Positions 1 to 59,408 of a stretch of 64,000 bases of DNA are shown here, one piece after another. The notes beneath the pieces are model-generated. The model had not been told where the DNA came from and did not search any database. It saw nothing but the letters and a program-made list of their open reading frames with translations. The position numbers were made by a program, and so were the translations under genes. Source of the stretch: Patescibacteria group bacterium (lineage in GTDB: Bacteria > Patescibacteriota > Patescibacteriia > UBA1558 > UBA10009); NCBI GenBank assembly GCA_041662565.1, contig JBAZSE010000003.1, positions 44,260 through 108,259 of the forward strand, written 5' to 3'. Each line of letters opens with the position of its first letter. Positions within the stretch are counted from its first letter, which is position 1.

Positions 1-1
1 A

Positions 2-1201
2 AAATTCAAGGATTTAACCGAAGCAGCAATTTACGCCCAATACCCGGAAGCGGAAATTACCGAAGTTAATGATTACGTTAGTTTGATTCCCGAAGATATT
101 CATAAAGTTGAATCAGATTATGATGTTTGGGCTACCGAATTTACTTTGGCTAAACCCAGTGCCTATCCCATAAAAACCTATACGGCATTTGAGCACCAAT
201 TGGCTGAAAGTTTTATCGATCCGATGTCGGCTTTGTTGGAAGTAATGAGTAAAATCGGCCAAGGCGAGCAGCTAGGTCTTCAGCTGGTAATTACGCCGGT
301 TGACGACCATTGGAAACACAAAGGCGAAGCCATTGTTGAAGAATTGATTGGCGCCAAGGGCGCCAGCAAAAAGCATTTGGGAGATAAAATGGTAGATAGG
401 ATTTTAGGTGTTTTGGAAAAATTCAGTGAAGCCATATATAAAATGTGGGGCGATATTAAGACGGAAAAAGAATCACCCAATCCCAGTTTATACCAATTTT
501 TAACAGTCGGTCAAAAAAACGTAGTTGAAGCGATCGAAAACAAATTGGCCAAAATTTGTTTTTCCGCCAGTTTTAGGGTTTATTACCTGGCTCACAAGGA
601 TCATTTTAAAAAAAGCCGGGGTGTTAATACTGTTTTAGGCGCCATTAACCAATTTAATACCAGCAACCTTAACGCCTTTAAAAAATACGGTAAGTTAACC
701 ACTCATCGTGATTATTTTTTTGTGGAAAAACGAGTTAATCGGGTTAAAAAGAAATTATTAAAATACTACAAAACCCGTTCTCGCAAGGGCTCAACAGAAT
801 TTTATCTTTCAACCGAAGAAATCGCCACATTGTATCACTTTCCTAACATTACTGTTAAGGCCCCATTGCTCAAAAAATCCGATGTTAAAACAGCCGAACC
901 GCCAACCAGTTTGCCTATTGAATATTCCGAAACTCAAAACTTTTTTATGGCCAAAACTGCCCAGCCAAATTTAACCATTGCCGATTTGGGACATAAAAAA
1001 GACGACCCTCAAATCTTACCCGAAAAAGAAACCAAACCCGAAGAAAAATTTGTCATTACCGAAAGTTTGCCCGGTTATGATTTTGATAATGATTATTTTG
1101 AGCAGCATTTTGCCAAAAACAGAACAATAAGCAATGCAACGCCAATTAAAAAAGAATTAGACAAAACAGTGGAACCGCCGTCTAATTTACCAATTTCTTA
1201 A
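2..1201 (+). CDS. hypothetical protein, 5'-truncated at window edge (tracked ORF 83..1201 starts at an internal TTG; frame is open back to nt 2)
   Basis: No in-frame stop from nt 2. Hydrophilic and Lys/Glu-rich. C-terminal duplicated motif KT(A/V)EPP(T/S)(S/N)LPI. No family recognised by eye. Stop lies 9 nt before the next gene, suggesting co-transcription. Confidence 0.45.
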   Translation, partial: KFKDLTEAAIYAQYPEAEITEVNDYVSLIPEDIHKVESDYDVWATEFTLAKPSAYPIKTYTAFEHQLAESFIDPMSALLEVMSKIGQGEQLGLQLVITPVDDHWKHKGEAIVEELIGAKGASKKHLGDKMVDRILGVLEKFSEAIYKMWGDIKTEKESPNPSLYQFLTVGQKNVVEAIENKLAKICFSASFRVYYLAHKDHFKKSRGVNTVLGAINQFNTSNLNAFKKYGKLTTHRDYFFVEKRVNRVKKKLLKYYKTRSRKGSTEFYLSTEEIATLYHFPNITVKAPLLKKSDVKTAEPPTSLPIEYSETQNFFMAKTAQPNLTIADLGHKKDDPQILPEKETKPEEKFVITESLPGYDFDNDYFEQHFAKNRTISNATPIKKELDKTVEPPSNLPIS

Positions 1202-1210
1202 TTAAAACAA

Positions 1211-2884
1211 ATGACTACAACCTCATCACAAGTGACAATTTTTGCCAAAACCAATTATCGCCATCAAGAGGTAAAATTTGGCATTAAAACCGATGATCGG
1301 CGCAGACACATGTATTTGATCGGTAAAACCGGCATGGGCAAATCCGTTACTCTGGAAAACATGATTATCCAGGATATCCAGCACGGCCGGGGAGTGGCTG
1401 TTGTTGATCCGCACGGTGAATTGGTGGAAAAAATCATCAAATTTATACCACCCAACAGGGTTAACGATGTGGTTTATATCAATCCGGCAGATTTGAATTA
1501 TCCAGTGGCTTTTAACGTACTGGAAAGCGTTTCCGAAGAACATCGTCACTTGGTTGCTTCCGGTTTGCTTGGGGTTTTTCAAAAATTATGGGCTGAATCA
1601 TGGGGTCCTCGTTTGGAATATGTATTGAACAACGCCATTATGGCTTTATTGGAATATCCTGGCAGTACGCTTTTGGGAGTAATGAGATTATTAATCGATA
1701 AATCATTTAGACAAAAGGTAATTAATAACATTACCGATCCGATGATTAAATCATTTTGGGTCGAAGAATATTCAAAATATCCCGATAAATTTCAATCCGA
1801 AGCAATTGCTCCGATTCAAAACAAAGTCGGCAGGTTTTTGTCATCGCCGATGATTAGAAATATCGTTGGTCAGGTAAAGTCATCGGTTGATTTGCGAAAA
1901 ATAATGGATGAGGAAAAAATCCTGTTACTTAATTTATCCAAAGGCCGGATCGGTGAAGACAATTCTGCACTGTTGGGCGCTATGATTATTACCAAAATCC
2001 AGTTGGCCGCCATGAGCCGGGTAGAAATTCCGGAAAAAGACCGTAAGGATTTTTATCTATACGTTGATGAATTTCAAAATTTTGCCACAGAAAGTTTTGG
2101 CAATATTTTATCCGAGGCTCGCAAATACCGCTTAAATTTAATCATGGCTCATCAATACATGGAGCAATTAAGTGAAACTACCCGTTCGGCCGTATTTGGT
2201 AATGTAGGCACCATTGTTTGCTTTAGGGTAGGAGGCGAGGATGCGGAATTTTTGGCCAAAGAATTTACTCCGCGCTTTGAAGAGCAGGATTTGTTAAATT
2301 TGGGCAAATACAATATTTATTTAAAATTGATGATAGACGGGGTTGCTTCGGAGCCTTTTTCGGCAACAACTTTACCACCGGTGCCGGAAAGCGAAGAAGC
2401 GGATAACATGATGGAAAAAGTTGTTAAGGTTTCACGCGAACGCTACGCCACCAAACGCGAAATTATCGAAGAAAAAATCCTTCGTTGGAGCTCCATGAAT
2501 GATTCCGGAGACGAGCAAGAAAGAAAACAGGCGGTAAATGTAAAAAACCAAATTAAAACTTTTTCCAAAACCTCACAACCAACCAATCAAGCAAAGAACT
2601 CTCCCAAAAAACCTTTGTTTAAAGATACGGGCATTACTCATCCTGCGGTTTGCGATGCCTGCGGTGAAAAAACCGTTTTAAATTTTATACCTGATCCCAA
2701 AAAACCGATCTATTGCAAAACTTGCTTAAAAAACTTAAGACAGGTAAAATCAGAAAACAGTCCAAAATCAGCACTTTCTGAAGAGCTTTTAAGCCAAAAA
2801 CCCTTAACTCTCAACGAAGCCATGGGTAAGGCGCCACAAAGCTTTAAAAATAGCGCCAATAACGTTAATTTAAGCCGGGAATAA
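1211..2884 (+). CDS. type IV secretion coupling-protein-like (TraD/TrwB/VirD4 superfamily) P-loop ATPase, soluble, with C-terminal zinc ribbon
   Basis: Walker A RHMYLIGKTGMGKSV at residues ~33-47. Walker B hhhhDE = YLYVDEFQNF about 250 aa later, a spacing compatible with an inserted all-alpha domain. RKYRLNLIMAHQ motif. No N-terminal TM segment. Ser/Lys-rich tail with C-x2-C-x17-C-x2-C (CDACGEKTV...YCKTC). Confidence 0.6.
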   Translation: MTTTSSQVTIFAKTNYRHQEVKFGIKTDDRRRHMYLIGKTGMGKSVTLENMIIQDIQHGRGVAVVDPHGELVEKIIKFIPPNRVNDVVYINPADLNYPVAFNVLESVSEEHRHLVASGLLGVFQKLWAESWGPRLEYVLNNAIMALLEYPGSTLLGVMRLLIDKSFRQKVINNITDPMIKSFWVEEYSKYPDKFQSEAIAPIQNKVGRFLSSPMIRNIVGQVKSSVDLRKIMDEEKILLLNLSKGRIGEDNSALLGAMIITKIQLAAMSRVEIPEKDRKDFYLYVDEFQNFATESFGNILSEARKYRLNLIMAHQYMEQLSETTRSAVFGNVGTIVCFRVGGEDAEFLAKEFTPRFEEQDLLNLGKYNIYLKLMIDGVASEPFSATTLPPVPESEEADNMMEKVVKVSRERYATKREIIEEKILRWSSMNDSGDEQERKQAVNVKNQIKTFSKTSQPTNQAKNSPKKPLFKDTGITHPAVCDACGEKTVLNFIPDPKKPIYCKTCLKNLRQVKSENSPKSALSEELLSQKPLTLNEAMGKAPQSFKNSANNVNLSRE

Positions 2885-2890
2885 ATCTTA

Positions 2891-4405
2891 ATGTTAAAAT
2901 TCTTTTTGGTTTTAAAATCCAAATTTTTTGCTAATCCAAACAGAGTTTGGGAGATTTTACCAGGCAGTATTACCTGGTTGACTTTTATTTTAGCCATAGT
3001 ATTTTCCATTTGGTTGCCGATTTGGGCAATTTATTTTATTATTGTTTTTGATCTTTTTTGGCTGCTTAAAGTTTTTTATTTGGTCATTAATCAAGTAACC
3101 TCGTGGTTTATTTTTAAAAAACAAGTCAAAATCAATTGGCTGGAAAAATTAAAAGGAGTTACCGCTAAAAATTGGCAGGATTATTATCATGTTATTTTTT
3201 TACCAACGTATAAAGAGCCCTTTGAAGTTATTGAACGAACTTTTATTTCTTTAGCTAAAGCGGTTTATGAACCGCAAAAATTTATTGTAGTTTTGGCAGG
3301 CGAAGAACGTGATCAAGAAAATTTTTTATCCTTTGCCGATAAAATTATCGAAAAATACTCCGGTCTGTTTTTAAAAATTTTGGTTACGGTTCATCCTAAA
3401 GATTTACCAGGCGAAATTCAGGGTAAGGCATCAAATATTAATTATGCCGGACATAAAGTTCAAGAGATAATTGACCAATTAAATATTCCTTACGAAAATG
3501 TTATTGTTTCGTCTTTTGACATTGATACTTGCCCGCACCCACAATATTTCAGCTATTTGGCTTACAAATATTTAACCCATCCCAAACCAACCAGAGTCAG
3601 TTACCAACCCATAGCCATTTACCACAACAATATTTGGCAATCCGATCCTTTAACCAGGGTGGTGGCCAATTCTACCACTTTTTGGCTGATGACCGATTTA
3701 GCCAGATCGGACCGTTTGTTTACTTTTTCTTCGCACTCCATGAGTTTTAGAGCTTTGGTTGATGTTGGCTTTTGGGAAAAAGATATTGTTTCCGAGGATT
3801 CGCGAATATTTTTGCAATGCTTGCTAAAATATGATGGAGATTATCAGGTCGAACCGATGTATATACCTGTTTCCATGAATACCGTTTCCACTGGTAAATT
3901 CTGGAAAGCTATGTCCGATCAATACAAACAAATGCGCCGCTGGGCCTGGGGCGTAGAGCATATCCCATACATGATGAAAAGATTTAAGGATCACCCCAAA
4001 ATGCCTTTTAAACTTAAATTTAAGCACTTTTTTAACCAAATGGAAGGAATGTGGTCTTGGGCCACCGCTCCTATTTTAATAACGGTAATGGGCCGTTTAC
4101 CACTCTTAATGGCTCCAAAAGGTATTCAATCAACCGCCATAGCCCAAATGGCCCCCCTAATTTTGGAAAAAATCATGACATTTGCCCTCGTAGGCCTTGC
4201 TTTAAACGCTATTTTAAGCACAATTTTAATGCCCGAACGGCCCAAAGGAAACAAATGGTACACCAAACTGGTTATGCTTTTAGAATGGGTATTATTCCCA
4301 GTTACCATGATAGTTTTTGGATCAATTCCGGCAACCGAAGCGCAAACCCGCTTAATGCTTGGCGGAAAATACCGCTTGGGTTTTTGGGTAACTGAAAAAA
4401 AATAA
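2891..4405 (+). CDS. membrane-embedded processive family-2 glycosyltransferase (cellulose/chitin/hyaluronan-synthase-like)
   Basis: N-terminal and C-terminal TM helices. D,D motifs (SFDIDT). QxxRW motif (QYKQMRRWAWG) diagnostic of processive GT2 synthases. Confidence 0.7.
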   Translation: MLKFFLVLKSKFFANPNRVWEILPGSITWLTFILAIVFSIWLPIWAIYFIIVFDLFWLLKVFYLVINQVTSWFIFKKQVKINWLEKLKGVTAKNWQDYYHVIFLPTYKEPFEVIERTFISLAKAVYEPQKFIVVLAGEERDQENFLSFADKIIEKYSGLFLKILVTVHPKDLPGEIQGKASNINYAGHKVQEIIDQLNIPYENVIVSSFDIDTCPHPQYFSYLAYKYLTHPKPTRVSYQPIAIYHNNIWQSDPLTRVVANSTTFWLMTDLARSDRLFTFSSHSMSFRALVDVGFWEKDIVSEDSRIFLQCLLKYDGDYQVEPMYIPVSMNTVSTGKFWKAMSDQYKQMRRWAWGVEHIPYMMKRFKDHPKMPFKLKFKHFFNQMEGMWSWATAPILITVMGRLPLLMAPKGIQSTAIAQMAPLILEKIMTFALVGLALNAILSTILMPERPKGNKWYTKLVMLLEWVLFPVTMIVFGSIPATEAQTRLMLGGKYRLGFWVTEKK

Positions 4406-4474: not shown

Positions 4475-5170
4475 CTATCTGAGCTCAAAGCTGACCTCCT
4501 GGATCAAGCAGCCACTGTTTTTGAGCAACCTCTCATCAAGAATGCTCGTCAGTTCTAAGAACAATGGCCTTTGATCATCGTAGTTAGGTAAAGCAGTAGC
4601 CAAGCGTTGGCGATTTTTTTCCGCCCAGAGAGCGAGATAAAATTGAATCACCCCAGATAGAGAGCCGTAGCTCGCTATCTCTTTTTTAAACCCCCTCCAA
4701 AGTAAGTATCTTTCGAGGTCGCCAGACGAGTTCATTTTCAACCGACAGACGATGCGAGCTGATTCATTGACTTGGTTAGAAACTTCACCGAGGTAGAACA
4801 TGAAGGCGTAATCCTGTTCTTGGTAGGATTCAATCGACCGCCAATCTTTCAACCGGCTGTCCCACTTCCAGAGCAGACCTCCCTTTGGCATGACCGCGTT
4901 GACCTGGCCGAAGGAATTGAAGATGATGCTTTCAGAATCAACTGACACTGTCAGGTATTTTCGTGGCGCCATGTAAAGTAGCCACGTGAAAATAAGAAAC
5001 AATACAGTCAGAAGCATAAGTCCTGCGTTTTCGCCCTGCTGTAGCGCCGCCGATTGCTGTGTTTGCGGTAGAGACACTATGTCCCTGATAAAAACCGCGA
5101 AAAAGCAGAGCGGAACAATTAACAAAACCAGCCGAACGTGGTTGCGAAAAAATCCAGAGATGGATTTCAT
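4475..5170 (-). CDS. hypothetical two-TM membrane protein encoded on a GC-rich (~47%) island
   Basis: ORF with two N-terminal hydrophobic helices and a ~160 aa soluble tail. Sampled GC is 42-53% against ~33-38% in the flanks. Codon choice differs (CTG/GCC/CGC-rich). Sits downstream of def-fmt on the same strand with its own terminator. Confidence 0.55.
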   Translation of the reverse strand: MKSISGFFRNHVRLVLLIVPLCFFAVFIRDIVSLPQTQQSAALQQGENAGLMLLTVLFLIFTWLLYMAPRKYLTVSVDSESIIFNSFGQVNAVMPKGGLLWKWDSRLKDWRSIESYQEQDYAFMFYLGEVSNQVNESARIVCRLKMNSSGDLERYLLWRGFKKEIASYGSLSGVIQFYLALWAEKNRQRLATALPNYDDQRPLFLELTSILDERLLKNSGCLIQEVSFELR

Positions 5171-7923: not shown

Positions 7924-9474
7924 TTATTGATTAATCGGGATAGTTGTGGTTGATGAGGTGGCTGACAAATTTTTCGGAATGATTAAATCTATTGGAGCTT
8001 TATTGGCAGGTGCAGTGATTATTGCCTCCAAGGCCTCTCCGGTAGGATGAATATCTACGGCTACTTGGGATGTTTCAATAATATCCGCCCAGCGATAGCC
8101 TCTGGAAATAAAAGCTTCTTCGGTAGCAATTGGCAGCTTTTTACCTCCTGCAACAACATACACAATTGGATTATCTTTGGCTTTAATAAGTGAACCGTCT
8201 TTAAATTTAATGGCCTCGCCTTTGGGGTACTTATCAAGCTCCGTTGATCTGCCGGAAAGAATTTTCCGGTCCGGATAATTATTCTTTAAAATTTCTTTAG
8301 CCAAAATAGGGAATTTTTCACCCGCTTCAACGTAATAAACCCCGCCGCTCGAACTATCCATAATCAAAGCGCCCGTTGGATAGCTGGAACTAATGGTAAT
8401 TTCCCGTCCTTTTTTTAAAACGGCTAAATCAGCATCGGCAACGTTTTCCACTTCTTCCGGATTAAAACCCAAGGTTCTAAACACTTCCTGGCTGGAGATT
8501 TTTCTTAAGGTGTCATCAACTAGCAAATAAATATTTTTACCCGAATCAGCCAATAATGAGTATTGGGAAAATTTAATCGGTTCGCCTAATTCATATTGAT
8601 CTATCTCCAATTGATCCACAATTACGATTTTGGATGGATTAAAACGGGTAGCCAGCGCGCTAAAATTGGCAAAGGGTCTTTTTTTGCCGTCTTGAATAAG
8701 ATAAACCGTATCGTTATTATTTGCTTTAACCAAACTGCCGGTGGGTCTGATGCTAGTTTGATTAAACCAATTATTCCAAATTTTCCAAAAATTATAGTTT
8801 GCTCCAATCTTGCCTTGTTCGGTTAAAGTTCCTCCTTGATATGGATTATAAGTATAAAGAGCGGCAGTAATTTTATTTTCAGGCCTAATGGTTTGATCAT
8901 CTTGAGTCATTTTAGCCACGCCCACGCACCACTTGGTAAATGTGCAATTAAAATTGGCAACGTATTTGCTTTTAATATTTAAATCGGCTAAATAATCATG
9001 GATAAATTTCCTAGCCATTGATTGGATTTGTTTGGCAAAACCTCGGTATTTATCCAAACAGATTCCGCCATAACAGCTATAGCCAACAGCCCAATTGTAC
9101 TGATTAGCCGTAGGCGATGGATCGGTAATCAAGCTTTGCTCCTTTTGCAGCATAATCATGATAAACTTGGGGTTTATCCGGTACTCTTGAGCCGTATTCC
9201 AAATTAACCAATAGGCCGGTTGCATGGTTAAAGGATCAATATATCTGCCCAAAGTTCCACCTTTTTCATTCAAAAATTCCCTGATCTGTTCTAAAGTTAA
9301 TGAACTGTAATCATTTATAAAAGCATCGGAAATAATATGATTAGGGTTAAAATCAGGATCAAGGGGCTGATAAATAACCGCTTGAGCTAAAGAGGTTAGA
9401 GGAAGAAAGTTAAAAGTTAAAAGAGAAAAAACACTGATAATTGAGATTATTTTTTGAAATTTATTTGCGATCAT
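7924..9474 (-). CDS. secreted protein with signal peptide and four C-terminal ~55-aa tandem repeats; possible lysozyme/SLT-like N-terminal region
   Basis: N-terminal signal peptide (LLTFNFLPLTSLAQA). Weak AQE...NP...MLQKEQS resemblance to lytic transglycosylase motifs. Repeats share a L(I/L)xAxxxxxVY(L/V)VxxGxKxPI...F...G(F/Y) pattern. Confidence 0.55.
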   Translation of the reverse strand: MIANKFQKIISIISVFSLLTFNFLPLTSLAQAVIYQPLDPDFNPNHIISDAFINDYSSLTLEQIREFLNEKGGTLGRYIDPLTMQPAYWLIWNTAQEYRINPKFIMIMLQKEQSLITDPSPTANQYNWAVGYSCYGGICLDKYRGFAKQIQSMARKFIHDYLADLNIKSKYVANFNCTFTKWCVGVAKMTQDDQTIRPENKITAALYTYNPYQGGTLTEQGKIGANYNFWKIWNNWFNQTSIRPTGSLVKANNNDTVYLIQDGKKRPFANFSALATRFNPSKIVIVDQLEIDQYELGEPIKFSQYSLLADSGKNIYLLVDDTLRKISSQEVFRTLGFNPEEVENVADADLAVLKKGREITISSSYPTGALIMDSSSGGVYYVEAGEKFPILAKEILKNNYPDRKILSGRSTELDKYPKGEAIKFKDGSLIKAKDNPIVYVVAGGKKLPIATEEAFISRGYRWADIIETSQVAVDIHPTGEALEAIITAPANKAPIDLIIPKNLSATSSTTTIPINQ

Positions 9475-36206: not shown

Positions 36207-38162
36207 TTAGTTTTGGTCAAAATCAAAGGTAGCCGGATCGGCATTAGGCACCATTTTACCTTCTTTATAAACATAATTTTTATCTTTACCATAAGCAGAA
36301 TAATCAATTCCTTCAAAAGAGTCGTAATCAGCCCCAGCAACAACCTTATCATCAAAATAAATTACGTCTTTGCCCCTATAATAGCATCCCCTTTTTGCTA
36401 ATTCTTTAAAATTAGCAAAATCTTCATTTTCATATCTTAAAAGCTTTTGCGTGCCTCCGTTGGGAATGCACAAATAGTTCTGCATAATAAAAATTGCGTT
36501 TTTATCTTTATACTTATCATATGCTTCTTTAACAAATGTAACAGTATCCGCAAAAGGTATAATGGTTTTATAAAAAAATACATTATTTTTGTCCTTTGCG
36601 AACCCATCACCAACGACTTCAAAGCTGTCATAATCGGCATTAATAATTACTGGCGTTGGCCCTGGTAGGTAATAAATATTCCTTTTTCCTTTGGCATAGA
36701 CATGGTTGGATCCGAGGATTTTAATATCTTCAAAATTTTCATTATCAAATCTTAATAAACTGATACGCTGCTCGCCGATAAGTAGAAAAATAGAATCTTT
36801 GTCCTGATAATACGTTATTTCGTAATCACCGTAGCCCTTCAGCACGCCTTGTTTTTTCTCAAAACTAGTTGCGTCAGCTCCAGCTAAAATTTTTCCATAA
36901 GAGTAAATATTGTTATTATCTTTAGCAAGTGAATAATTAAAGATTTTAAAGCTATTTACGTCCGAACCTTCAATTTTTTGCACCTTAAAATAATTAAAAT
37001 TTTTGTCCTTGGCATATTCCGTCGCTTCACCATTATTATCTTTTATTACTTCAAAAGTTTCAAAATCAACTCCAGGTTGTGCAATCACAACGTCGTTCTC
37101 ACCCATTCCTCCGCCCATTGTTTTATATAGATTACTGTTATCATTCATATAACATTCTTCGTTGGTTTGTCTAAAACTCTGAACATCGGCGTTATTTATT
37201 GCCTGCCAACCCTCAGTGCTGCTATAAAAATAAACAAAATCCTGATCTTTGACAAAGCGGCATTTTTCATAAACAGTTAAAGTGCTTACGTTAAACAATT
37301 TTTTATCATGCAAATAGATAAAGTTTTTATCCAAAGCGTAGTCAAGATTATTATCTGTAGTTCTGGCTAATTTATCTAACTCCTCCGACTCGCCTTTGAT
37401 TAAAAGTTTAAAAGTGAGCAAATCTACGCCATTAATTATTTTAACCTGTGATCCTTTGTTCTTAAAGCCAATGTGGTAAGCATTGTTTTTATCCTTTACA
37501 TAACCAGTGGTATAACTTTTTGAGTTGTCATTTAAAAGTTCAAAGGTCTCGCCGTCAATTCCGCTAAGTATTTGATCATATTCATAAACATGATTTTTGT
37601 CTTTAGCAAAAATATTATTAACCATAACAAAGCTGGCTGGATCAGCTCCTTCGATTTTTTTTACTATATAGCCACGCATTTCTTTAGGCTTGTCTCCATC
37701 ATATTCAAAATAGTAATAAAAAACATTATTCTTATCTTTAAAATACTCCTTTTCAACTGCCAATCCAGCTTTTAAGCTTATTGTTTTTTCAACTTCGTCA
37801 ACAAATGAAAAGGTGGTGTAATCAATATTTTCTAGTTTTTTGCCGCCCAAATAGATATTATTTTTATCCTTAGCAAAACCAGCGACGGGCAAGGCCTTAA
37901 AAGTTTTAGGATCAGAACCGATAATGGGTTCACCGTATAAAGTAACATAATCGGCGTGCTTTAAATAACCCCTATCAGATCCGTAATAATCGTTTGGTTT
38001 ACCATCATTAATCGGCTGAAAAAAAATAAGCCAAACAAACCAAATAAAAAGAGGTACAGCTACCACTAAGGCGAAAGCCAAACAAAGGACGGTAAAAGCG
38101 TCCAATTTTATGCTGCTAATATATCCTCTGATTTTACACAGAAAGCTGTTTAAAAACTCCAT
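36207..38162 (-). CDS. membrane-anchored DKNYY-repeat family protein
   Basis: N-terminal TM, then at least 14 degenerate repeats centred on (F/Y)AKDKNN(V/I)(F/Y)Y, as in Pfam DKNYY-family proteins. Confidence 0.65.
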   Translation of the reverse strand: MEFLNSFLCKIRGYISSIKLDAFTVLCLAFALVVAVPLFIWFVWLIFFQPINDGKPNDYYGSDRGYLKHADYVTLYGEPIIGSDPKTFKALPVAGFAKDKNNIYLGGKKLENIDYTTFSFVDEVEKTISLKAGLAVEKEYFKDKNNVFYYYFEYDGDKPKEMRGYIVKKIEGADPASFVMVNNIFAKDKNHVYEYDQILSGIDGETFELLNDNSKSYTTGYVKDKNNAYHIGFKNKGSQVKIINGVDLLTFKLLIKGESEELDKLARTTDNNLDYALDKNFIYLHDKKLFNVSTLTVYEKCRFVKDQDFVYFYSSTEGWQAINNADVQSFRQTNEECYMNDNSNLYKTMGGGMGENDVVIAQPGVDFETFEVIKDNNGEATEYAKDKNFNYFKVQKIEGSDVNSFKIFNYSLAKDNNNIYSYGKILAGADATSFEKKQGVLKGYGDYEITYYQDKDSIFLLIGEQRISLLRFDNENFEDIKILGSNHVYAKGKRNIYYLPGPTPVIINADYDSFEVVGDGFAKDKNNVFFYKTIIPFADTVTFVKEAYDKYKDKNAIFIMQNYLCIPNGGTQKLLRYENEDFANFKELAKRGCYYRGKDVIYFDDKVVAGADYDSFEGIDYSAYGKDKNYVYKEGKMVPNADPATFDFDQN

Positions 38163-43861: not shown

Positions 43862-43893
43862 ACCCTGGATTTATCAGGGTGTTTTAATTATTT
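43862..43893. terminator. bidirectional terminator
   Basis: A-run-ACACCCTG-gatttat-CAGGGTGT-T-run between convergent genes. Confidence 0.55.
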
Positions 43894-45385
43894 ACAATTT
43901 TGGCATATTTTGAGGTGCCACAGGTGGAATAGCGTTAGGTTGCTGCTCTATACCTCTTCTGGCAGGCATTTGCCCCTCTGTACCCTGCCTTAATCCTGGC
44001 TTAAGGGGCTGGGTATTGGGTCTTTCATCATTTTTATTTGCTTCATTTTTTGGTTCTGCCGAATCCTCTTTGTCTTTTTCAACTTTTTCGGCTTTTTTAA
44101 CTTCTGCCATTTTTCTATCCATTTTTTTTAGTAATTCCGGATCAGCTTGCCTAATAACCCTTTGCATAACTGGCGCGGGATTTATTTCTTTCTTTAATTC
44201 TTGGATATTTTTCTGATTATCCATTTTTTCCAAACGATTATTAAGGTTTTCCACCTTTCTTTCTTGAACTTGCTGTAAGGCCTCTTTAGCCCGAGCATTT
44301 TTAACTTCTTGGCGTAAACGATCAATTACTTCAATAGATTTGGTATCACCGGAATCTTCCAGGGGCTGCAACAAATCTTGTTGCTGTTCGGGAGTTTTGG
44401 TTTCTTCTAAAAGCTGTTTTAAATTATTCAAGCGATTTTGCTCAAATTTTTTAAGCGGTACCATTAATGCCTTTAAATTCGGATCAACTTTGCTTTGTTC
44501 ATCCAAACCCTCTTTAAGAAAATTTATCACCCTTAACTGATCGGCATCTTGGCCGGACAGGCCATCCAATTGGGAATTAAATTCTTTAGCGGATCCGCTG
44601 CCCTCTTCTTTCATTTGCTCGAAAAACTTTTCCCTAACAGCTTGATTGGCCTCCCTTACGCCCTGGCGCATTTCTTCATCTTCCATTTTATCGCCTAATT
44701 TTTGGATAACTTTTAAATTTAAGAGCTGATCGGAAATTGTTCCGTTTTCGCTAGCAGAAGATTCAGCCGCTTTTTCCAAGCGCTCCTTAATTTTTTCCTG
44801 ATTCTTTTCAACTCGTTGTAAAAATTGGCCGAATTTTTCCAAAGTTTTTTCTTTGATGGCTTCAAATTTTTGCTTTTGCTCTTCGGTTAAGCCAGCTGTT
44901 TTTTCTTCAATCTTATCCATAACCTGCTGTTGCTTGAGCTGGTTATCGGTAATTTTATCCAACAGTTTTTCGGCGCTTGCGCTATTTTTTTCTTTTATGG
45001 CCTCAACCCTGGCTTGCACTTTATCCATCATTTCTTGGTATTTTTGCAAACTTTTTTCTACCATGGCCTGGGCCTTGGCATTATCGGGATTTTCTTGAGC
45101 AATTTTTTTGGCTTCCAACAATTTTTCATTGGCAATGTTTAACTGTAATTCGGCTTTTTTTTCTGCATTAAAAGTTAAGGTTGTTTTGATTGTTCGGCCT
45201 AAATTTTTAAACCAGTAGCCAAAGGCATTGGTTGGTAAAACCGTTGGTTCAGCTACTCCTAAATCGCTCGAAGTAACTTCGGCCGTGGCTGTTGATTCAA
45301 CAACTGCCTGGTCTTGCGCTAAAACAGGCCCAGCCAAAGATAGGCAAAACAAGGATATTATGAAAAGAAATAATAATTTCCGCAT
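43892..45385 (-). CDS. secreted low-complexity coiled-coil protein (Glu/Lys/Gln-rich)
   Basis: Signal peptide ending LAGPVLAQD followed by ~470 aa of heptad-rich charged sequence. Confidence 0.55.
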   Translation of the reverse strand: MRKLLFLFIISLFCLSLAGPVLAQDQAVVESTATAEVTSSDLGVAEPTVLPTNAFGYWFKNLGRTIKTTLTFNAEKKAELQLNIANEKLLEAKKIAQENPDNAKAQAMVEKSLQKYQEMMDKVQARVEAIKEKNSASAEKLLDKITDNQLKQQQVMDKIEEKTAGLTEEQKQKFEAIKEKTLEKFGQFLQRVEKNQEKIKERLEKAAESSASENGTISDQLLNLKVIQKLGDKMEDEEMRQGVREANQAVREKFFEQMKEEGSGSAKEFNSQLDGLSGQDADQLRVINFLKEGLDEQSKVDPNLKALMVPLKKFEQNRLNNLKQLLEETKTPEQQQDLLQPLEDSGDTKSIEVIDRLRQEVKNARAKEALQQVQERKVENLNNRLEKMDNQKNIQELKKEINPAPVMQRVIRQADPELLKKMDRKMAEVKKAEKVEKDKEDSAEPKNEANKNDERPNTQPLKPGLRQGTEGQMPARRGIEQQPNAIPPVAPQNMPKL

Positions 45386-56699: not shown

Positions 56700-59408
56700 T
56701 TATTTCTTTAACAAAACACTGTACAAATAATCTTGATCTAACTTGACCGAAAAATCTGCTCCCTGGGGGTTGGCCTTAACCTGTTGACCGTTACTTGCGC
56801 CGGACCAAACAATGCCCCAGTTATTTGGCAAAACCAGGTGGCTACTTAGATTGGTTTGGGTAGCGCCAGACTGTTTTTGAACCAATAAACTGTAGCCGGC
56901 CTTGGCAGAAGCGCGATTGAATCCGACAAATGACAAAATTTGATTAAGCTTGCTTGATTTAAAATCAAGCTTAAACGGCAAAAGGTAAGAAAAAGTTAAG
57001 GTTTGGCTTTCTCCTGGATTTAATTGCAGCCAAGCGGCCATAACTGATTTATTCAACTCATCATAAGTAACTACCCCTCCATCAGAGCCAAAATTTTGTT
57101 GATTAGAAACAAGAGCAGATAAATCAGGATCTTCCATATAACCTTCGTAAGGTTCTTTAAACAAAGATTGATCTAAAATACTGTAACCACTGGCCTCTTG
57201 GAGTTTTGCGCCTTGGGGGACGTAAACCCTAATATAAGCATTGTTTTGAACCCGCTCAAAAACATCATTTTTATTGCCATAATGGTTTAAAGTAACGGAT
57301 ACGGTATCAATTATCGAACCGTCGGCCAAAACATGAGCGTAATGATCAATTTGCTCGCTTAACACGCTATTGGATTTTCCTCCGCCGATATTGGTGTTAA
57401 TAACGGCCAAATAATCTTGATTTGCTTGTTTAATTTCACCAGCCCAATTAAAGGCCTTAGCGCGCTGTTCCATAGCCGAATCGGTAAAATAAAGCTGAAC
57501 ATCTTTGCTGTTTAACCCCTGGCCAAAAACAGCCAGCAATCCGGGCAAAGAAGAAGCTGAACCCGAAGTTAATCGTTCCAAGACAACTTTAAACAGATCA
57601 CCAATAATCTTTTTGGGTTGATTGGAAATTTTATCGTATTCAAATTCCGTTTCATGTTGCAGGGCTAAAATAACATTTTCGGGAGTTAATACCTGATCGT
57701 ATTGGGGCAAAATTACATTGCCGGAAATTTTTAAAATCTCAGGCATTAAATTTGAATTGATTAAAATAACGCCGTCAACTGTTGGGCCACCTGATTTGTA
57801 ATAAAACCATAACAGCTTATTCATGGAAGTTGGCACATCAGGCGACCAATTGGCATCCCAGGGCATCCAAGGAGTCCCTAGTAAGTGCATTGGCTTAGGT
57901 GAGAGCACTTTTTCGCCCGAGGCCTGAAAATCCTGCTTTAAATCATACAAACCGCCTGGAGGCACCTCTAAATTTGAAATCTTGCCCGAAACAATATCAG
58001 CTAAAGCATAACTGCCCATAAAACCTCCGGTGGCCTTGCGTTCATTTGTATTTTGAAACACTAGTAAATAGCGCTTGGCTGTTTGATAACCCAAAACATC
58101 GTAAGTAAAGTTTAACAATTCATTGGCCTGATCCAAGCTGGCAAACAAAACCGGCAACTGGCTTTTAATTTCGGTAAATGCCGGTCGATAATTTTTAGGC
58201 AAAGCATGTGCATCCACTTGGTCTAAATTATTCAAGGCCTCTTTTAAATGCTCTAAGCCCATAGCCAAACCTTGTTTTAAAATTGCAAAATTTTGATCCA
58301 ACGGAGAATTAACATCGGTCGTTCCTCCGGCTAAAGCCACGGTTTGAGAAATTTCCGAACCTGCCTGGGTTAATAGCTGGCCAGCAGCGATTAAATGCTT
58401 GCCACCATTAATTTTGCCGCTTGCTACCGGAATATTTTCCAAAAAATTCAAAATTGATTGGTTGTAACTGTTTAAAACTTCGGCGGCTTGGGAAAAATAA
58501 TCGTTGGCCAAATTAAAATTAAAACCGGCTTTTTGCCAATCTTGCGCGCCAACTGCCAATAAGCCGTCTTTGACTTGCTGGATAGCCTCTTCTGTTGCGC
58601 CTAAAACTTTAACCTGGCTTTTATTAACTTGGCTGTAAATAAAATAACTGCGCATTGGTACAATAAACAGCAAAGCAATTAAGGCAAAATATAAAGTATT
58701 TTTTAAATTAAACCAATAAAAAGAAGTGGTGGTAATTGGTTGAGAACTTAATTTTTTATAAGATGGCTTGAATCGAAAAGTGGGAAAAATTCCTCGTGAA
58801 AACTTAACAAAATCCGCAACAATTTCTACAAAAGTCCGTTTCTTTAACAAGGTTGGGGCATCGAGCAGAGGTAATTCTTCAAAATTATTTTGGCCAAAAA
58901 CCAAACTCGGTTTAAACTTAGCCGGTTTGGTAAATTGGGCACTAGCGGATTTTTTAAGATTTAAAGTATGGGCGGAATTTTTGGGTAAGGCCTTAGGGCT
59001 AACGCCGGATAAACCGCCTTTTTTATCCAAAAAAACGCTAAAACTTTTTTTATTTAAGAATGATTTTAAAGAATTTTGGAGTTCCTGTCTGTGAGTCGGT
59101 ATTGATTCAACCGTTGGTTGATTTGATAAAAAATCTTTTTGAAAAGTTTGCTGGGTTTTGTTTGATTCCAAATTCTGTATTTCTTTATATATTTGCACTT
59201 GCTCATCAACTAAAAAATGATCCAAATTGAAATCAATTTTGGTTTCAACAGGTTGGTTTAAGAGCTGTTTAGCTTTCTTTTCGGCTTTGGTTCGCTGGCT
59301 TTTAACCAAACTTTTTTTAGTTTTTTGGCGAACCGTTTTTTTTACCGGTAGTTCTAAAAAATCACCCTCAAGGTTATTTTCTAGATTTGATTTTTGTTTT
59401 TCTTCCAT
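56700..59408 (-). CDS. large hypothetical membrane-anchored extracytoplasmic protein (902 aa)
   Basis: Basic N-terminal ~230 aa, one TM (LYFALIALLFIVPM), then a ~650 aa mixed alpha/beta region. Family not recognised; DUF4012-like is only a guess. Confidence 0.55.
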   Translation of the reverse strand: MEEKQKSNLENNLEGDFLELPVKKTVRQKTKKSLVKSQRTKAEKKAKQLLNQPVETKIDFNLDHFLVDEQVQIYKEIQNLESNKTQQTFQKDFLSNQPTVESIPTHRQELQNSLKSFLNKKSFSVFLDKKGGLSGVSPKALPKNSAHTLNLKKSASAQFTKPAKFKPSLVFGQNNFEELPLLDAPTLLKKRTFVEIVADFVKFSRGIFPTFRFKPSYKKLSSQPITTTSFYWFNLKNTLYFALIALLFIVPMRSYFIYSQVNKSQVKVLGATEEAIQQVKDGLLAVGAQDWQKAGFNFNLANDYFSQAAEVLNSYNQSILNFLENIPVASGKINGGKHLIAAGQLLTQAGSEISQTVALAGGTTDVNSPLDQNFAILKQGLAMGLEHLKEALNNLDQVDAHALPKNYRPAFTEIKSQLPVLFASLDQANELLNFTYDVLGYQTAKRYLLVFQNTNERKATGGFMGSYALADIVSGKISNLEVPPGGLYDLKQDFQASGEKVLSPKPMHLLGTPWMPWDANWSPDVPTSMNKLLWFYYKSGGPTVDGVILINSNLMPEILKISGNVILPQYDQVLTPENVILALQHETEFEYDKISNQPKKIIGDLFKVVLERLTSGSASSLPGLLAVFGQGLNSKDVQLYFTDSAMEQRAKAFNWAGEIKQANQDYLAVINTNIGGGKSNSVLSEQIDHYAHVLADGSIIDTVSVTLNHYGNKNDVFERVQNNAYIRVYVPQGAKLQEASGYSILDQSLFKEPYEGYMEDPDLSALVSNQQNFGSDGGVVTYDELNKSVMAAWLQLNPGESQTLTFSYLLPFKLDFKSSKLNQILSFVGFNRASAKAGYSLLVQKQSGATQTNLSSHLVLPNNWGIVWSGASNGQQVKANPQGADFSVKLDQDYLYSVLLKK

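What the first reader, a model, noticed from the sequence alone, without database searches (positions are those of the whole stretch)
1..2884. Soluble T4CP-like ATPase with a C-terminal zinc ribbon, paired with an unknown upstream gene cut by the window edge
The 557-aa protein has the TraD/TrwB/VirD4-type P-loop (RHMYLIGKTGMGKS), a DEFQNF Walker B about 250 residues later (room for an all-alpha domain), and an arginine-containing RKYRLNLIMAHQ segment. It has no N-terminal membrane anchor, which canonical coupling proteins do have. It ends in a Ser/Lys-rich tail carrying a C-x2-C-x17-C-x2-C zinc ribbon, not a feature of classical type IV coupling proteins (T4CPs). It sits 9 nt after a Lys/Glu-rich gene of unknown family (duplicated KTxEPPxxLPI motif) whose 5' end lies outside the window. 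The pair is directly followed by a processive GT2 synthase. Possible roles: a T4SS-like DNA or protein translocation module of the kind reported in CPR episymbionts, a conjugative remnant, or a two-gene NTPase-based system of unknown function such as defence.
Basis: partly seen in the sequence, partly recalled or inferred. Interest (0 to 1): 0.6.

Follow-up and report, generated by a model that had tools for sequence, protein, structure and literature searches.

The report
Split membrane-tethered coupling-type ATPase of Patescibacteria
This gene pair encodes a DNA-pump-like ATPase related to conjugation "coupling proteins" plus a membrane anchor protein that folds like the front half of the secretion ATPase VirB4. 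It is a conserved chromosomal pair in the ultra-small Patescibacteria, not a plasmid remnant, and its job is still untested.

Summary
ORF 1211-2884 is a soluble 557-aa VirD4/TrwB-type P-loop ATPase with a C-terminal CxxC-x17-CxxC zinc finger. It starts 9 nt after a gene cut by the window edge.

- **Upstream gene:** I recovered it whole from the same genome. It is 525 aa and belongs to Pfam DUF8128. It has one N-terminal transmembrane helix, a confident alpha/beta domain and a disordered tail with two conserved PPxxLP motifs.
- **Fusions:** the two genes form one protein in a Bacillus subtilis conjugative plasmid, where it sits beside a relaxase-like gene and TcpC/D/E plus a VirB4-like ATPase. 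They are also fused in Bacillus phage G, a haloarchaeal plasmid and some Patescibacteria; one fused form carries an S1 domain instead of the zinc finger.
- **In Patescibacteria:** the pair is chromosomal and strongly conserved (ATPase 61-81% identical across lineages). It usually follows secDF and has no VirB4, relaxase or integrase nearby.
- **Literature:** a 2025 paper already noted abundant orphan VirD4 homologues in this phylum. It did not describe the partner gene, its fold, the fusions or the tail domains.

Verdict: a new variant of a known kind, probably a membrane-tethered nucleic-acid motor. Function untested.

The parts
1..1201 (+). 3' part (codons 127-525 plus stop) of gene 1. The full gene is 525 aa and belongs to Pfam DUF8128. 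It has an N-terminal TM helix (residues ~20-49, outside the window), a VirB4-N-terminal-domain-like alpha/beta domain (residues ~60-403) and a disordered Lys/Glu/Pro-rich tail.
815..844 (+). EEIATLYHFP motif at the end of the DUF8128 domain. H405, F406 and P407 are invariant. The fused phage and plasmid homologues carry aligned, related motifs here (IHLP in phage G gp156, RFP in the B. subtilis plasmid protein).
   Evidence: Alignments A1 and A2. hhalign to phage G gp156 and to the B. subtilis plasmid protein aligns this motif.
887..919 (+). First KTAEPPTSLPI motif. The consensus is VKAPLLKK.E.K.AEPP..LP; P427 and P431 are invariant.
1163..1195 (+). Second motif, KTVEPPSNLPI, at the extreme C-terminus. 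The consensus is PPxNLP(I/F).
   Evidence: A PxNLP-type C-terminus is present in 64 of 80 related loci. Alignment A1.
1211..2884 (+). Gene 2: a soluble VirD4/TrwB-type P-loop ATPase of 557 aa. The core spans residues ~14-426. It is followed by a low-complexity linker, a zinc finger and a short tail.
   Evidence: Pfam and NCBIfam. PDB sequence search puts TrwB first. hhalign to TrwB gives probability 93.2 over 264 columns, against probability 2.4 to TrwK/VirB4. Alignment A3 has 59% mean column identity.
1322..1345 (+). Walker A motif GKTGMGKS (residues 38-45).
   Evidence: G38, K39, T40, G41, M42, G43 and K44 are invariant; S45 is nearly invariant.
2054..2074 (+). Walker B motif YLYVDEF (residues 282-288).
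   Evidence: Invariant in A3. It aligns with the TrwB Walker B.
2120..2155 (+). RKYRLNLIMAHQ (residues 304-315): the conserved Arg/Gln segment that aligns with TrwB RKAGLRVVAGLQ.
2636..2734 (+). Treble-clef zinc finger (Pfam match residues 476-508; CxxC-x17-CxxC at residues 481-505).
   Evidence: PF23477 scores 37.8 bits and TIGR04272 scores 36.3 bits. The four Cys are invariant in A3. Zinc binding by this domain type was shown experimentally in Methanosarcina mazei small proteins (PMC12704099).

Best explanation
The two genes encode the two halves of one machine: a coupling-protein-type translocation ATPase tethered to the membrane.

**Gene 1 (DUF8128).** It inserts by a single N-terminal TM helix, predicted N-out/C-in because HEKRKKY follows the helix. 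This places a VirB4-N-terminal-domain-like alpha/beta domain and a disordered tail with two PPxxLP motifs in the cytoplasm.

**Gene 2.** It is the motor: a VirD4/TrwB-like P-loop ATPase with about 240 residues between the Walker A and B motifs. A C-terminal zinc finger is attached by a flexible Lys/Ser-rich linker.

**Inferred steps.**
- The ATPase forms a ring, as its relatives TrwB, TcpA, FtsK and HerA do.
- The ring docks on the gene 1 domain at the membrane. This recreates the TM + VirB4-NTD-like + ATPase architecture that is a single chain in the coupling protein of Tcp-type conjugative plasmids of Bacillus.
- ATP hydrolysis moves a nucleic-acid substrate that the C-terminal module (zinc finger here, S1 domain in a WWE3 relative) helps to capture.

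In Patescibacteria this is a conserved chromosomal gene pair, not part of a mobile element. I think it most likely serves, in trans, the chromosomal MPF-FATA-like type IV secretion system of these bacteria. That system has been proposed as a route for acquiring nucleic acid from the host.

**Shown:** homology, domain architecture, fusions, conservation, synteny, and absence of conjugation genes nearby.

**Inferred:** physical interaction of the two proteins, oligomeric state, nucleic-acid substrate, and the link to the T4SS.
For: **ATPase identity**
- TrwB_AAD_bind scores 43.6 bits over residues 26-340, and T4SS-DNA_transf scores 25.2 bits. Both are above their cut-offs.
- TrwB is the best solved-structure sequence match.
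- hhalign to TrwB gives probability 93.2 over 264 columns, against probability 2.4 to VirB4/TrwK.
- TrwB finds the ATPase by tblastn in 49 related loci. Four VirB4-type queries find nothing.

**Gene 1**
- PF26449 (DUF8128) is a precomputed hit.
- It has one TM helix; the ATPase has none.
- The AF2 model has pLDDT 85.5.
- The 14 best Foldseek matches (probability 0.92-1.00) are all TrwK chains.

**One functional unit**
- phrog_5156 covers both genes.
- Phage G gp156 (825 aa) combines a DUF8128-like N-terminal part (hhalign probability 97.3; Foldseek E 3.7e-16) with the ATPase.
- The B. subtilis plasmid protein (913 aa) carries PF26449 + DUF87 + TrwB_AAD_bind. It sits beside a replication-relaxation gene, TcpC, TcpD, TcpE and an AAA_10 VirB4-like ATPase.
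- Fused forms also occur in Patescibacteria lineages: Jacksonbacteria, WS5 and WWE3.
- The ATPase lies directly downstream of DUF8128, on the same strand, in 57 of 80 species-representative loci.

**Housekeeping character**
- The ATPase is 61-81% identical across the aligned Patescibacteria homologues, with many invariant columns.
- At least 588 species genomes carry DUF8128.
- DUF8128 has 2060 clusters at 50% identity.
- SecDF/sigma-like synteny is kept in 46-54 of 80 loci.
- GC is uniform.
- Neighbours are SecA, SecDF, fmt and def.

**Nucleic-acid hint**
- The C-terminal module is a zinc finger in 34 of 50 complete neighbours.
- It is an S1 domain (63 bits) in a WWE3 fusion.

**Literature**
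- VirD4-type homologues occur in 2,918 of 3,035 Patescibacteria genomes, and only 148 of 5,713 lie near virB4. The authors say exaptation cannot be excluded (PMC12102498).
- The T4SS has been proposed as a nucleotide-acquisition route (PMC11665869).
Against: - No experiment bears on this family in Patescibacteria.
- The T4SS link is weak. No virB4 or other T4SS gene lies in the 64-kb window or the upstream 8.8 kb.
- The cited paper finds T4CP homologues in more genomes (2,918) than VirB4 (2,417).
- That paper also reports that the t4cp homologue of Ca. Southlakia epibionticum is not essential although the T4SS is. I did not verify that this homologue belongs to the present family.
- 18 of 80 loci have DUF8128 without an adjacent ATPase.
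- 16 of 50 complete adjacent ATPases lack the zinc finger, so that module is not obligatory.
- Zinc fingers and S1 domains can also mediate protein contacts or RNA binding.
Confidence: 0.5

Rival explanations
1. The pair is a T4SS-independent housekeeping nucleic-acid translocase. It was exapted from a coupling protein and now works alone at the membrane. Possible roles are DNA import for competence or nucleotide scavenging, chromosome handling at division, or RNA/DNA export.
For: - The ATPase is very strongly conserved.
- It is never seen next to T4SS genes here.
- T4CP homologues occur in more genomes than VirB4, and only 148 of 5,713 lie near virB4. The t4cp is dispensable in a species whose T4SS is essential (PMC12102498).
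- The interchangeable zinc-finger and S1 C-terminal modules suggest direct nucleic-acid capture.
- Synteny with secDF is conserved.
Against: - The only homologues seen in an informative gene context (one Bacillus plasmid, and phage G next to a VirB4-like gene) sit with T4SS-type partners.
- A ring ATPase needs a membrane channel, and none is encoded in the operon.
- The genome counts include incomplete assemblies, so a genome that appears to lack VirB4 may simply be incomplete.
Confidence: 0.3
2. The pair acts like a VirB4, not like a coupling protein. It would be an assembly or protein-translocation ATPase for a surface structure or secretion route, with gene 1 playing the VirB3/VirB4-NTD role.
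For: - Gene 1 has a VirB4 N-terminal-domain fold behind a TM helix.
- The split into NTD-like and ATPase genes parallels TrsD + TrsE of pGO1.
- The next-best fold hits are EccE subunits of type VII secretion.
- The pair lies next to secDF.
Against: - The ATPase domain matches VirD4/TrwB, not VirB4. AAA_10 scores 20.1 bits, below its cut-off of 27.5. hhalign to TrwK gives probability 2.4.
- In the Bacillus plasmid a separate bona fide VirB4-like ATPase (AAA_10, 285 bits) coexists with the fused homologue.
- Patescibacteria already have their own VirB4 clade.
- S1 and zinc-finger tails point to nucleic acid.
Confidence: 0.1
3. The pair is a decayed remnant of an integrated conjugative element or plasmid.
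For: - Homologues are common on plasmids: 534 PLSDB records, 109 of them typed conjugative.
- The fused form is the coupling protein of a Tcp-type cluster.
Against: - No relaxase, integrase, tRNA or T4SS gene lies nearby.
- GC is uniform.
- The same gene order occurs in dozens of species from several Patescibacteria lineages, with 61-81% ATPase identity. This conservation and shared gene order do not fit a decaying remnant.
Confidence: 0.03
4. The pair is a two-gene NTPase-based anti-phage defence system (MADS mad8-like or HerA-like).
For: - PADLOC mad8 hit: E 9.6e-15, 52.9 bits.
- Weak HerA hits confined to the P-loop.
Against: - Gene 1 has no PADLOC hit.
- None of the neighbouring genes scanned has a defence-related family.
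- Defence systems are patchy and fast-evolving, whereas this pair is widespread in the phylum and very conserved.
- HerA equivalog scores are far below their cut-offs.
Confidence: 0.03

Closest known systems
VirD4/TrwB-family type IV coupling proteins (R388 TrwB; PDB 1E9R)
   Same: - P-loop ATPase of the FtsK/HerA superfamily.
- Walker A, Walker B and the RK...Q segment all align.
- The spacing between the Walker motifs, where TrwB has its all-alpha domain, is similar.
- The Pfam coupling-protein models score above their cut-offs.
   Different: - No TM segment in the ATPase chain.
- The membrane anchor is a separate protein with a large VirB4-NTD-like domain that TrwB lacks.
- A C-terminal zinc finger is added.
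- No relaxase or T4SS genes are adjacent.
- It is chromosomal, conserved and syntenic across lineages.
- It scores far below the NCBIfam TraD equivalog cut-offs (42 against 366).
Fused DUF8128-ATPase proteins of Firmicutes and archaeal plasmids and Bacillus phages (B. subtilis plasmid NZ_OX419581 WP_144625398, 913 aa; Bacillus phage G gp156, 825 aa; Haladaptatus plasmid protein, 1193 aa). None of these is characterised.
   Same: - The same two domains in the same order (PF26449 then the TrwB-like ATPase).
- The plasmid and phage G proteins carry related junction motifs (RFP, IHLP) that align with the HFP motif.
- The ATPase cores are 27-29% identical.
   Different: - They are a single polypeptide.
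- They have no N-terminal TM helix and no zinc finger.
- They sit on mobile elements, next to a relaxase-like gene and TcpC/D/E/VirB4-like genes (plasmid) or a VirB4-like gene (phage G).
VirB4 (R388 TrwK; PDB 7O42, 8RTD), together with VirB3
   Same: - The overall order, membrane element then NTD then ATPase, is that of VirB3-VirB4.
   Different: - There is no sequence similarity.
- The ATPase half is VirD4-like, not VirB4-like.
- It is split into two genes.
- It is not next to VirB3, VirB6 or VirB8.
Orphan VirD4-type T4CP homologues of Patescibacteria (Quinonero-Coronel et al. 2025, Microb Genom, PMC12102498)
   Same: This is very probably the same gene set: VirD4-profile hits present in 96% of genomes, almost never near virB4, and suggested to be possibly exapted.
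   Different: In the passages I searched, that paper treats them as single T4CP genes. They do not mention the DUF8128 partner, its VirB4-like fold, the fusions, the zinc finger or S1 tails, or the secDF synteny (term search: zinc 0 and TrwB 0 occurrences).
TrsD + TrsE of Staphylococcus plasmid pGO1 (split VirB4)
   Same: A small VirB4-NTD-related protein is encoded immediately upstream of a DUF87 ATPase.
   Different: - DUF8128 has no detectable sequence relation to TrsD (probability 0.2).
- TrsD is 227 aa, against a domain of about 345 aa here.
- TrsE is the VirB4 of its system, and pGO1 has a separate VirD4-like TrsK.

Membership tests
VirD4/TrwB type IV coupling protein (T4CP) | FtsK/HerA-superfamily P-loop domain with Walker A and Walker B, matching coupling-protein profiles above threshold | tested here: met
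   PF10412 scores 43.6 bits (cut-off 20.5) and PF02534 scores 25.2 (cut-off 20.1). TrwB is the top PDB sequence hit. hhalign to TrwB gives probability 93.2.
VirD4/TrwB type IV coupling protein (T4CP) | All-alpha domain inserted between Walker A and Walker B | tested here: inconclusive
   About 240 residues separate the motifs. The TrwB_AAD_bind profile is matched across positions 10-310, and hhalign spans the region. No structure of the ATPase was predicted.
VirD4/TrwB type IV coupling protein (T4CP) | N-terminal transmembrane anchor in the same polypeptide | tested here: not met
   No 19-residue window reaches Kyte-Doolittle 1.6 in the ATPase. The upstream protein has one TM helix at residues 20-49.
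VirD4/TrwB type IV coupling protein (T4CP) | Genetic association with a relaxase and/or mating-pair-formation (VirB4) genes | tested here: not met
   Neighbours are SecA, SecDF, a sigma-like protein, GT2, fmt and def. The ten largest ORFs of the window are housekeeping or unrelated domain-of-unknown-function proteins, none T4SS-related. VirB4-type tblastn queries find nothing.
VirD4/TrwB type IV coupling protein (T4CP) | Match to NCBIfam TraD/TrbC equivalog or subfamily models at their trusted cut-offs | tested here: not met
   The best hit is TIGR03743 at 42 bits against a cut-off of 366, and it covers the P-loop region only.
VirB4 | VirB4 N-terminal domain fold | tested here: met
   [not shown]
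VirB4 | VirB4-type ATPase domain (AAA_10 / CagE_TrbE_VirB profiles) | tested here: not met
   AAA_10 scores 20.1 bits, below its cut-off of 27.5. hhalign to TrwK gives probability 2.4, P-loop only.
Pfam DUF8128 (PF26449) | Match to the family model | tested here: met
   PF26449 is a precomputed hit for the full upstream protein and for nearly all its listed homologues, and also for the fused Bacillus protein. The local Pfam copy returned no match to this model.
CxxC-x17-CxxC / zf_Tbcl_2 treble-clef zinc finger (TIGR04272, PF23477) | Two CxxC pairs 17 residues apart, matching the model at its cut-off | tested here: met
   TIGR04272 scores 36.3 bits (cut-off 36) and PF23477 scores 37.8 (cut-off 27). 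The four Cys are invariant in 25 homologues. Zinc binding itself was not tested here; it was shown for M. mazei members (PMC12704099).
FtsK/SpoIIIE DNA translocase | FtsK_SpoIIIE motor-domain profile above threshold | tested here: not met
   PF01580 scores 17.0 bits, below its cut-off of 24, and covers the P-loop only.
HerA helicase | HerA equivalog model | tested here: not met
   NF040819 scores 15.1 bits against a cut-off of 970. The PDB HerA hit has E 0.13.
MADS or other anti-phage defence system | Multi-gene defence island with the other system components | tested here: not met
   There is only a mad8 profile hit to the ATPase (52.9 bits). Gene 1 has no PADLOC hit. The neighbouring genes scanned are housekeeping or unrelated families.

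The most novel reading that the evidence does not exclude
The DUF8128 + ATPase pair is a phylum-wide, T4SS-independent nucleic-acid motor of Patescibacteria. Its membrane adaptor keeps the VirB4 N-terminal fold and its engine is VirD4-like. Interchangeable C-terminal nucleic-acid-binding modules (zinc finger or S1) capture DNA or RNA. It could be the missing energy source for acquiring nucleic acid from host cells, or for chromosome handling in these minimal cells. It would also be a living intermediate that links the VirB4 and VirD4 branches of the T4SS ATPases.
Probability: 0.2. Interest if true: 0.85.

Novelty: new variant of a known kind. Interest (0 to 1): 0.55.

Why it matters
Patescibacteria make up a large share of bacterial diversity. 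They cannot make nucleotides, and how they obtain nucleic acid from their hosts is an open question. Their type IV secretion system is essential in the one species tested, yet its coupling ATPase has been a puzzle. Homologues are present in about 96% of genomes, almost never lie next to the T4SS genes, and the one tested is dispensable.

This analysis shows three things about that orphan ATPase.
- It is half of a conserved two-gene unit.
- Its partner is a membrane-anchored protein with the VirB4 N-terminal fold.
- The same unit is a single-chain coupling protein in the one Gram-positive conjugative plasmid examined in detail.

That gives a concrete, testable model: a membrane adaptor, a ring motor and a nucleic-acid-binding tail. 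It assigns a structural identity to a domain of unknown function with more than 2000 sequence clusters. It also suggests that a VirB4-like N-terminal domain may be ancestral to part of the coupling-protein lineage. If the function turned out to be ordinary, acting in trans with the T4SS, the result would still correct the annotation of thousands of 'hypothetical protein' genes.

Tried and rejected
- **Single-sequence AlphaFold of gene 1.** It gave a useless model (pLDDT 34.8) and cost one of the two structure jobs. As a result neither the ATPase nor the complex could be modelled.
- **Exact-sequence contig look-ups.** Three failed because my ORF starts differ from the public gene calls, or because of my coordinate slip on the minus strand. 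The P0001 look-up worked.
- **Sequence searches of DUF8128 against PDB.** Both the single-sequence and the profile search found nothing.
- **hhalign of DUF8128 against VirB4-type proteins.** TrwK, the Bacillus VirB4-like protein and pGO1 TrsD all gave nothing significant. The VirB4 relation is structural only.
- **Literature.** No paper mentions DUF8128. A search for DUF87 together with coupling protein found nothing relevant.
- **AFDB Foldseek library.** It was not available.
- **Defence system.** Rejected: one PADLOC hit only, no island, and strong conservation.
- **ICE or conjugative remnant.** Rejected: no integrase, tRNA, relaxase or T4SS gene, uniform GC and conserved synteny.
- **FtsK or HerA identity.** Rejected: below thresholds.
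- **GT2 as a functional partner.** Rejected: present downstream in only 8 of 80 loci.
- **Antisense ORFs inside the two genes.** All are 118 aa or shorter and lie within strongly conserved coding sequence. I treated them as spurious.

Full report
**1. What is in the sequence**

The ORF at 1211-2884 (+) encodes 557 aa. It has these features:
- Walker A GKTGMGKS at residues 38-45.
- Walker B YLYVDEF at residues 282-288.
- RKYRLNLIMAHQ at residues 304-315.
- A K/N/S-rich tail from about residue 430.
- CDACGEKTVLNFIPDPKKPIYCKTC at residues 481-505.

It has no hydrophobic segment of transmembrane strength.

An ORF in the same direction runs off the left edge of the window and stops at 1199-1201, 9 nt before the ATG. 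It carries KTAEPPTSLPI and KTVEPPSNLPI. A GT2 gene (Glyco_trans_2_3) starts 6 nt after the ATPase stop.

**2. Family of the ATPase**

- Pfam gives TrwB_AAD_bind at 43.6 bits over residues 26-340 of the protein and positions 10-310 of the profile.
- T4SS-DNA_transf, TraG-D_C and DUF87 also score above their cut-offs. FtsK_SpoIIIE and AAA_10 score below theirs.
- NCBIfam TraD, TrbC, CedD and HerA models match only the P-loop and fall far below their cut-offs.
- Among solved structures the best sequence match is TrwB, followed by DotL.
- A profile of 25 homologues aligns with R388 TrwB over 264 columns at probability 93.2. With R388 TrwK/VirB4 only the P-loop aligns, at probability 2.4.
- The zinc finger matches PF23477 (37.8 bits) and TIGR04272 (36.3 bits).
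- Zinc binding by this domain type has been shown experimentally in Methanosarcina mazei small proteins (PMC12704099).

**3. Recovering gene 1**

A 100% identical ATPase (P0001; its gene call starts at GTG 1232) lies on an 809-kb ENA contig. The window matches locus L001 from position 8770 onward.

The complete upstream gene encodes 525 aa and carries the precomputed Pfam hit PF26449 (DUF8128). The local Pfam copy returned no match to that model.

The gene order is: SecA ... SecD, SecF, a sigma70_r4/HARE-HTH protein, DUF8128, ATPase, GT2, then fmt and def on the other strand. The gaps are 42, 9 and 6 nt. Promoter-like sites lie before the sigma-like gene and terminator-like sites lie after secF.

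There is no VirB4, VirB6, relaxase, integrase or tRNA. The ten largest ORFs of the rest of the window include AlaRS, LepA, MurJ, a Mur ligase and a class II tRNA synthetase. None is T4SS-related. GC is uniform.

**4. Anatomy of gene 1**

It has one TM helix at residues 20-49, followed by HEKRKKY, so the bulk of the protein is predicted to be cytoplasmic (positive-inside rule, inference).

A 116-sequence alignment gave an AlphaFold model with pLDDT 85.5 and pTM 0.76. The model shows a long helix at residues 18-57, a confident alpha/beta domain at 60-403 and a disordered tail.

The conserved motifs are:
- EELATLYHFP at the end of the domain.
- VKAPLLKK.E.K.AEPP..LP just after it.
- PPxNLP(I/F) at the extreme C-terminus, present in 64 of 80 loci.

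Fold comparison:
- No other P-loop ATPase appears in the top 60 hits: not TrwB, FtsK, HerA or the VirB4 C-terminal domain. The match is therefore to the VirB4 N-terminal domain.
- The 14 best Foldseek matches are all TrwK chains, with probability 0.92-1.00.
- TM-scores are low (about 0.3).
- There is no sequence-level signal to VirB4 or to TrsD.

**5. The two genes are one unit**

- phrog_5156 (824 positions) covers gene 1 at positions 100-360 and the ATPase at positions 394-808.
- Bacillus phage G gp156 (825 aa) has a DUF8128-like N-terminal part plus the ATPase. hhalign gives probability 97.3 and E 1.8e-11; Foldseek on the viral library gives E 3.7e-16. The gene lies next to a VirB4-like gene, gp155.
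- A 913-aa protein of a B. subtilis plasmid has the same architecture. hhalign gives probability 95.4. Its precomputed Pfam hits are PF26449 + PF01935 + PF01580, and a local scan adds TrwB_AAD_bind at 22.6 bits.
- That plasmid gene is followed by a replication-relaxation gene, TcpC, TcpD, TcpE and an AAA_10 ATPase scoring 285 bits. It therefore occupies the coupling-protein position of a Tcp-type conjugation cluster.
- A 1193-aa haloarchaeal plasmid protein shows the N-terminal signature by eye, together with TrwB_AAD_bind.
- Fused forms also exist in Patescibacteria: Jacksonbacteria, WS5 and WWE3.
- The WWE3 protein (942 aa, in a housekeeping context) ends in an S1 domain (63 bits) where the zinc finger would be.

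**6. Distribution**

- The ATPase search saturated at 8000 clusters. The listed hits are 61-80% identical and are named Komeili-, Nomura- or Buchananbacteria or Parcubacteria.
- Alignment A3 has 59% mean column identity and many invariant positions.
- DUF8128 has 2060 clusters at 50% identity with E at or below 1e-3.

In the 80 best loci:
- The ATPase lies directly downstream on the same strand in 57.
- In 5 loci the contig ends within 1.4 kb of gene 1.
- 18 have at least 3.7 kb of other genes downstream instead.
- SecDF lies upstream in 46 loci, and the sigma-like gene in 54.
- Of 50 complete adjacent ATPases, 34 have the zinc finger.
- Many end in PG(Q/E)VIKF. The window protein lacks that ending.

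**7. Literature**

Quinonero-Coronel et al. 2025 (PMC12102498) studied 3,035 Patescibacteria genomes. They found VirB4 in 2,417 genomes and 5,713 VirD4-type T4CP homologues in 2,918 genomes. Only 148 of those homologues lie near virB4.

They noted that the t4cp of Ca. Southlakia epibionticum is not essential, unlike the T4SS, and that exaptation cannot be ruled out. The passages I searched do not mention the partner gene, the zinc finger or the fusions.

A PNAS perspective (PMC11665869) proposes the T4SS as a candidate route for nucleotide acquisition. No paper mentions DUF8128.

**8. Interpretation**

The pair is a split version of a coupling-protein family whose N-terminal half has the VirB4 N-terminal fold. 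In this form it is anchored to the membrane.

- Homology, architecture, fusion, conservation and context are shown.
- Docking of the ATPase on gene 1, ring formation, a nucleic-acid substrate and cooperation with the T4SS are inferred.

The main rival is a T4SS-independent role, which the distribution data make quite plausible. A conjugative remnant and a defence system are both contradicted by conservation, synteny, composition and context.

**9. Verdict**

The gene class was already noticed in the literature as orphan T4CP homologues. The two-gene architecture, the VirB4-like fold of DUF8128, the fusions and the variable nucleic-acid-binding tails appear to be undescribed. I rate it a new variant of a known kind, with interest 0.55.

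Noticed in passing
L088:8001-10829 (WWE3 genome GCA_014729135.1; protein P0417): A fused DUF8128 + TrwB-like ATPase carries a C-terminal S1 RNA-binding domain (residues 854-925, 63 bits) where the window protein has a zinc finger. The chromosomal context is housekeeping: EF-P, Lgt, LspA and GyrA.
   Followed up: partly
L001:3589-8351 (upstream of the window) and loci L002-L081: The gene order SecD, SecF, (sigma70_r4 + HARE-HTH protein), DUF8128, ATPase is kept in 46-54 of 80 species-representative loci. I could not tell whether this reflects function or shared ancestry. The sigma-like/HARE-HTH protein is itself uncharacterised.
   Followed up: partly
L039, L041, L043, L044, L049, L051, L052, L055, L058, L060, L061, L064, L069, L071, L073, L076, L077, L079: These Falkowbacteria- and Magasanikbacteria-like loci keep DUF8128 behind secDF or the sigma-like gene. 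Most keep its PPxNLP tail. None has an ATPase within 3.7-6 kb downstream. In L051 the downstream genes are GT4, DUF4012 and DUF11 proteins. I did not check whether the ATPase lies elsewhere in those genomes.
   Followed up: partly
model of L001:8393-9970: After VirB4, the next-best fold matches are EccE3 and EccE5, membrane subunits of type VII secretion systems. I recall that they sit beside the FtsK-like ATPase EccC. This hints at a shared fold for membrane adaptors of this ATPase superfamily.
   Followed up: no
window 2804-2824 and the C-termini of homologues (alignment A3): The ATPase tails carry two further short conserved motifs after the zinc finger: (I/L)SLxEA(L/M), and a C-terminal PG(Q/E)VIKF. 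The window protein has the first (LTLNEAM) but lacks the second.
   Followed up: partly
window 1211 vs 1232: The public gene call for the identical protein starts at GTG 1232 (550 aa). Homologue N-termini fit ATG 1211 (557 aa).
   Followed up: yes
window 2891-4405 (+): This is a multi-pass membrane GT2 (Glyco_trans_2_3, 38.5 bits) starting 6 nt after the ATPase stop. It is found downstream of the pair in only 8 of 80 related loci, so it is probably not part of the system.
   Followed up: partly
window 4475-5170 (-), 36207-38162 (-), 43892-45385 (-), 56700-59408 (-): These are uncharacterised proteins elsewhere in the window: a 231-aa membrane protein with no family, a 651-aa DKNYY-repeat protein, a DUF5667 protein and a 902-aa DUF4012 protein.
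   Followed up: no
L087:25886-28602 (pGO1): In pGO1, TrsD (227 aa) lies immediately upstream of the 672-aa DUF87 ATPase TrsE, which I take to be the plasmid's VirB4. PMC12102498 describes TrsD as remotely similar to the VirB4 N-terminal part. This split parallels the DUF8128/ATPase split, but DUF8128 and TrsD share no detectable sequence similarity.
   Followed up: partly
L082:8001-9188 (Sulfitobacter mediterraneus plasmid NZ_CP081110): The closest non-Patescibacteria ATPase homologue (39.7% identity over residues 1-388) is a stand-alone 395-aa protein. It lies among transposases and a recombinase, and no DUF8128 gene or T4SS gene is annotated nearby.
   Followed up: no
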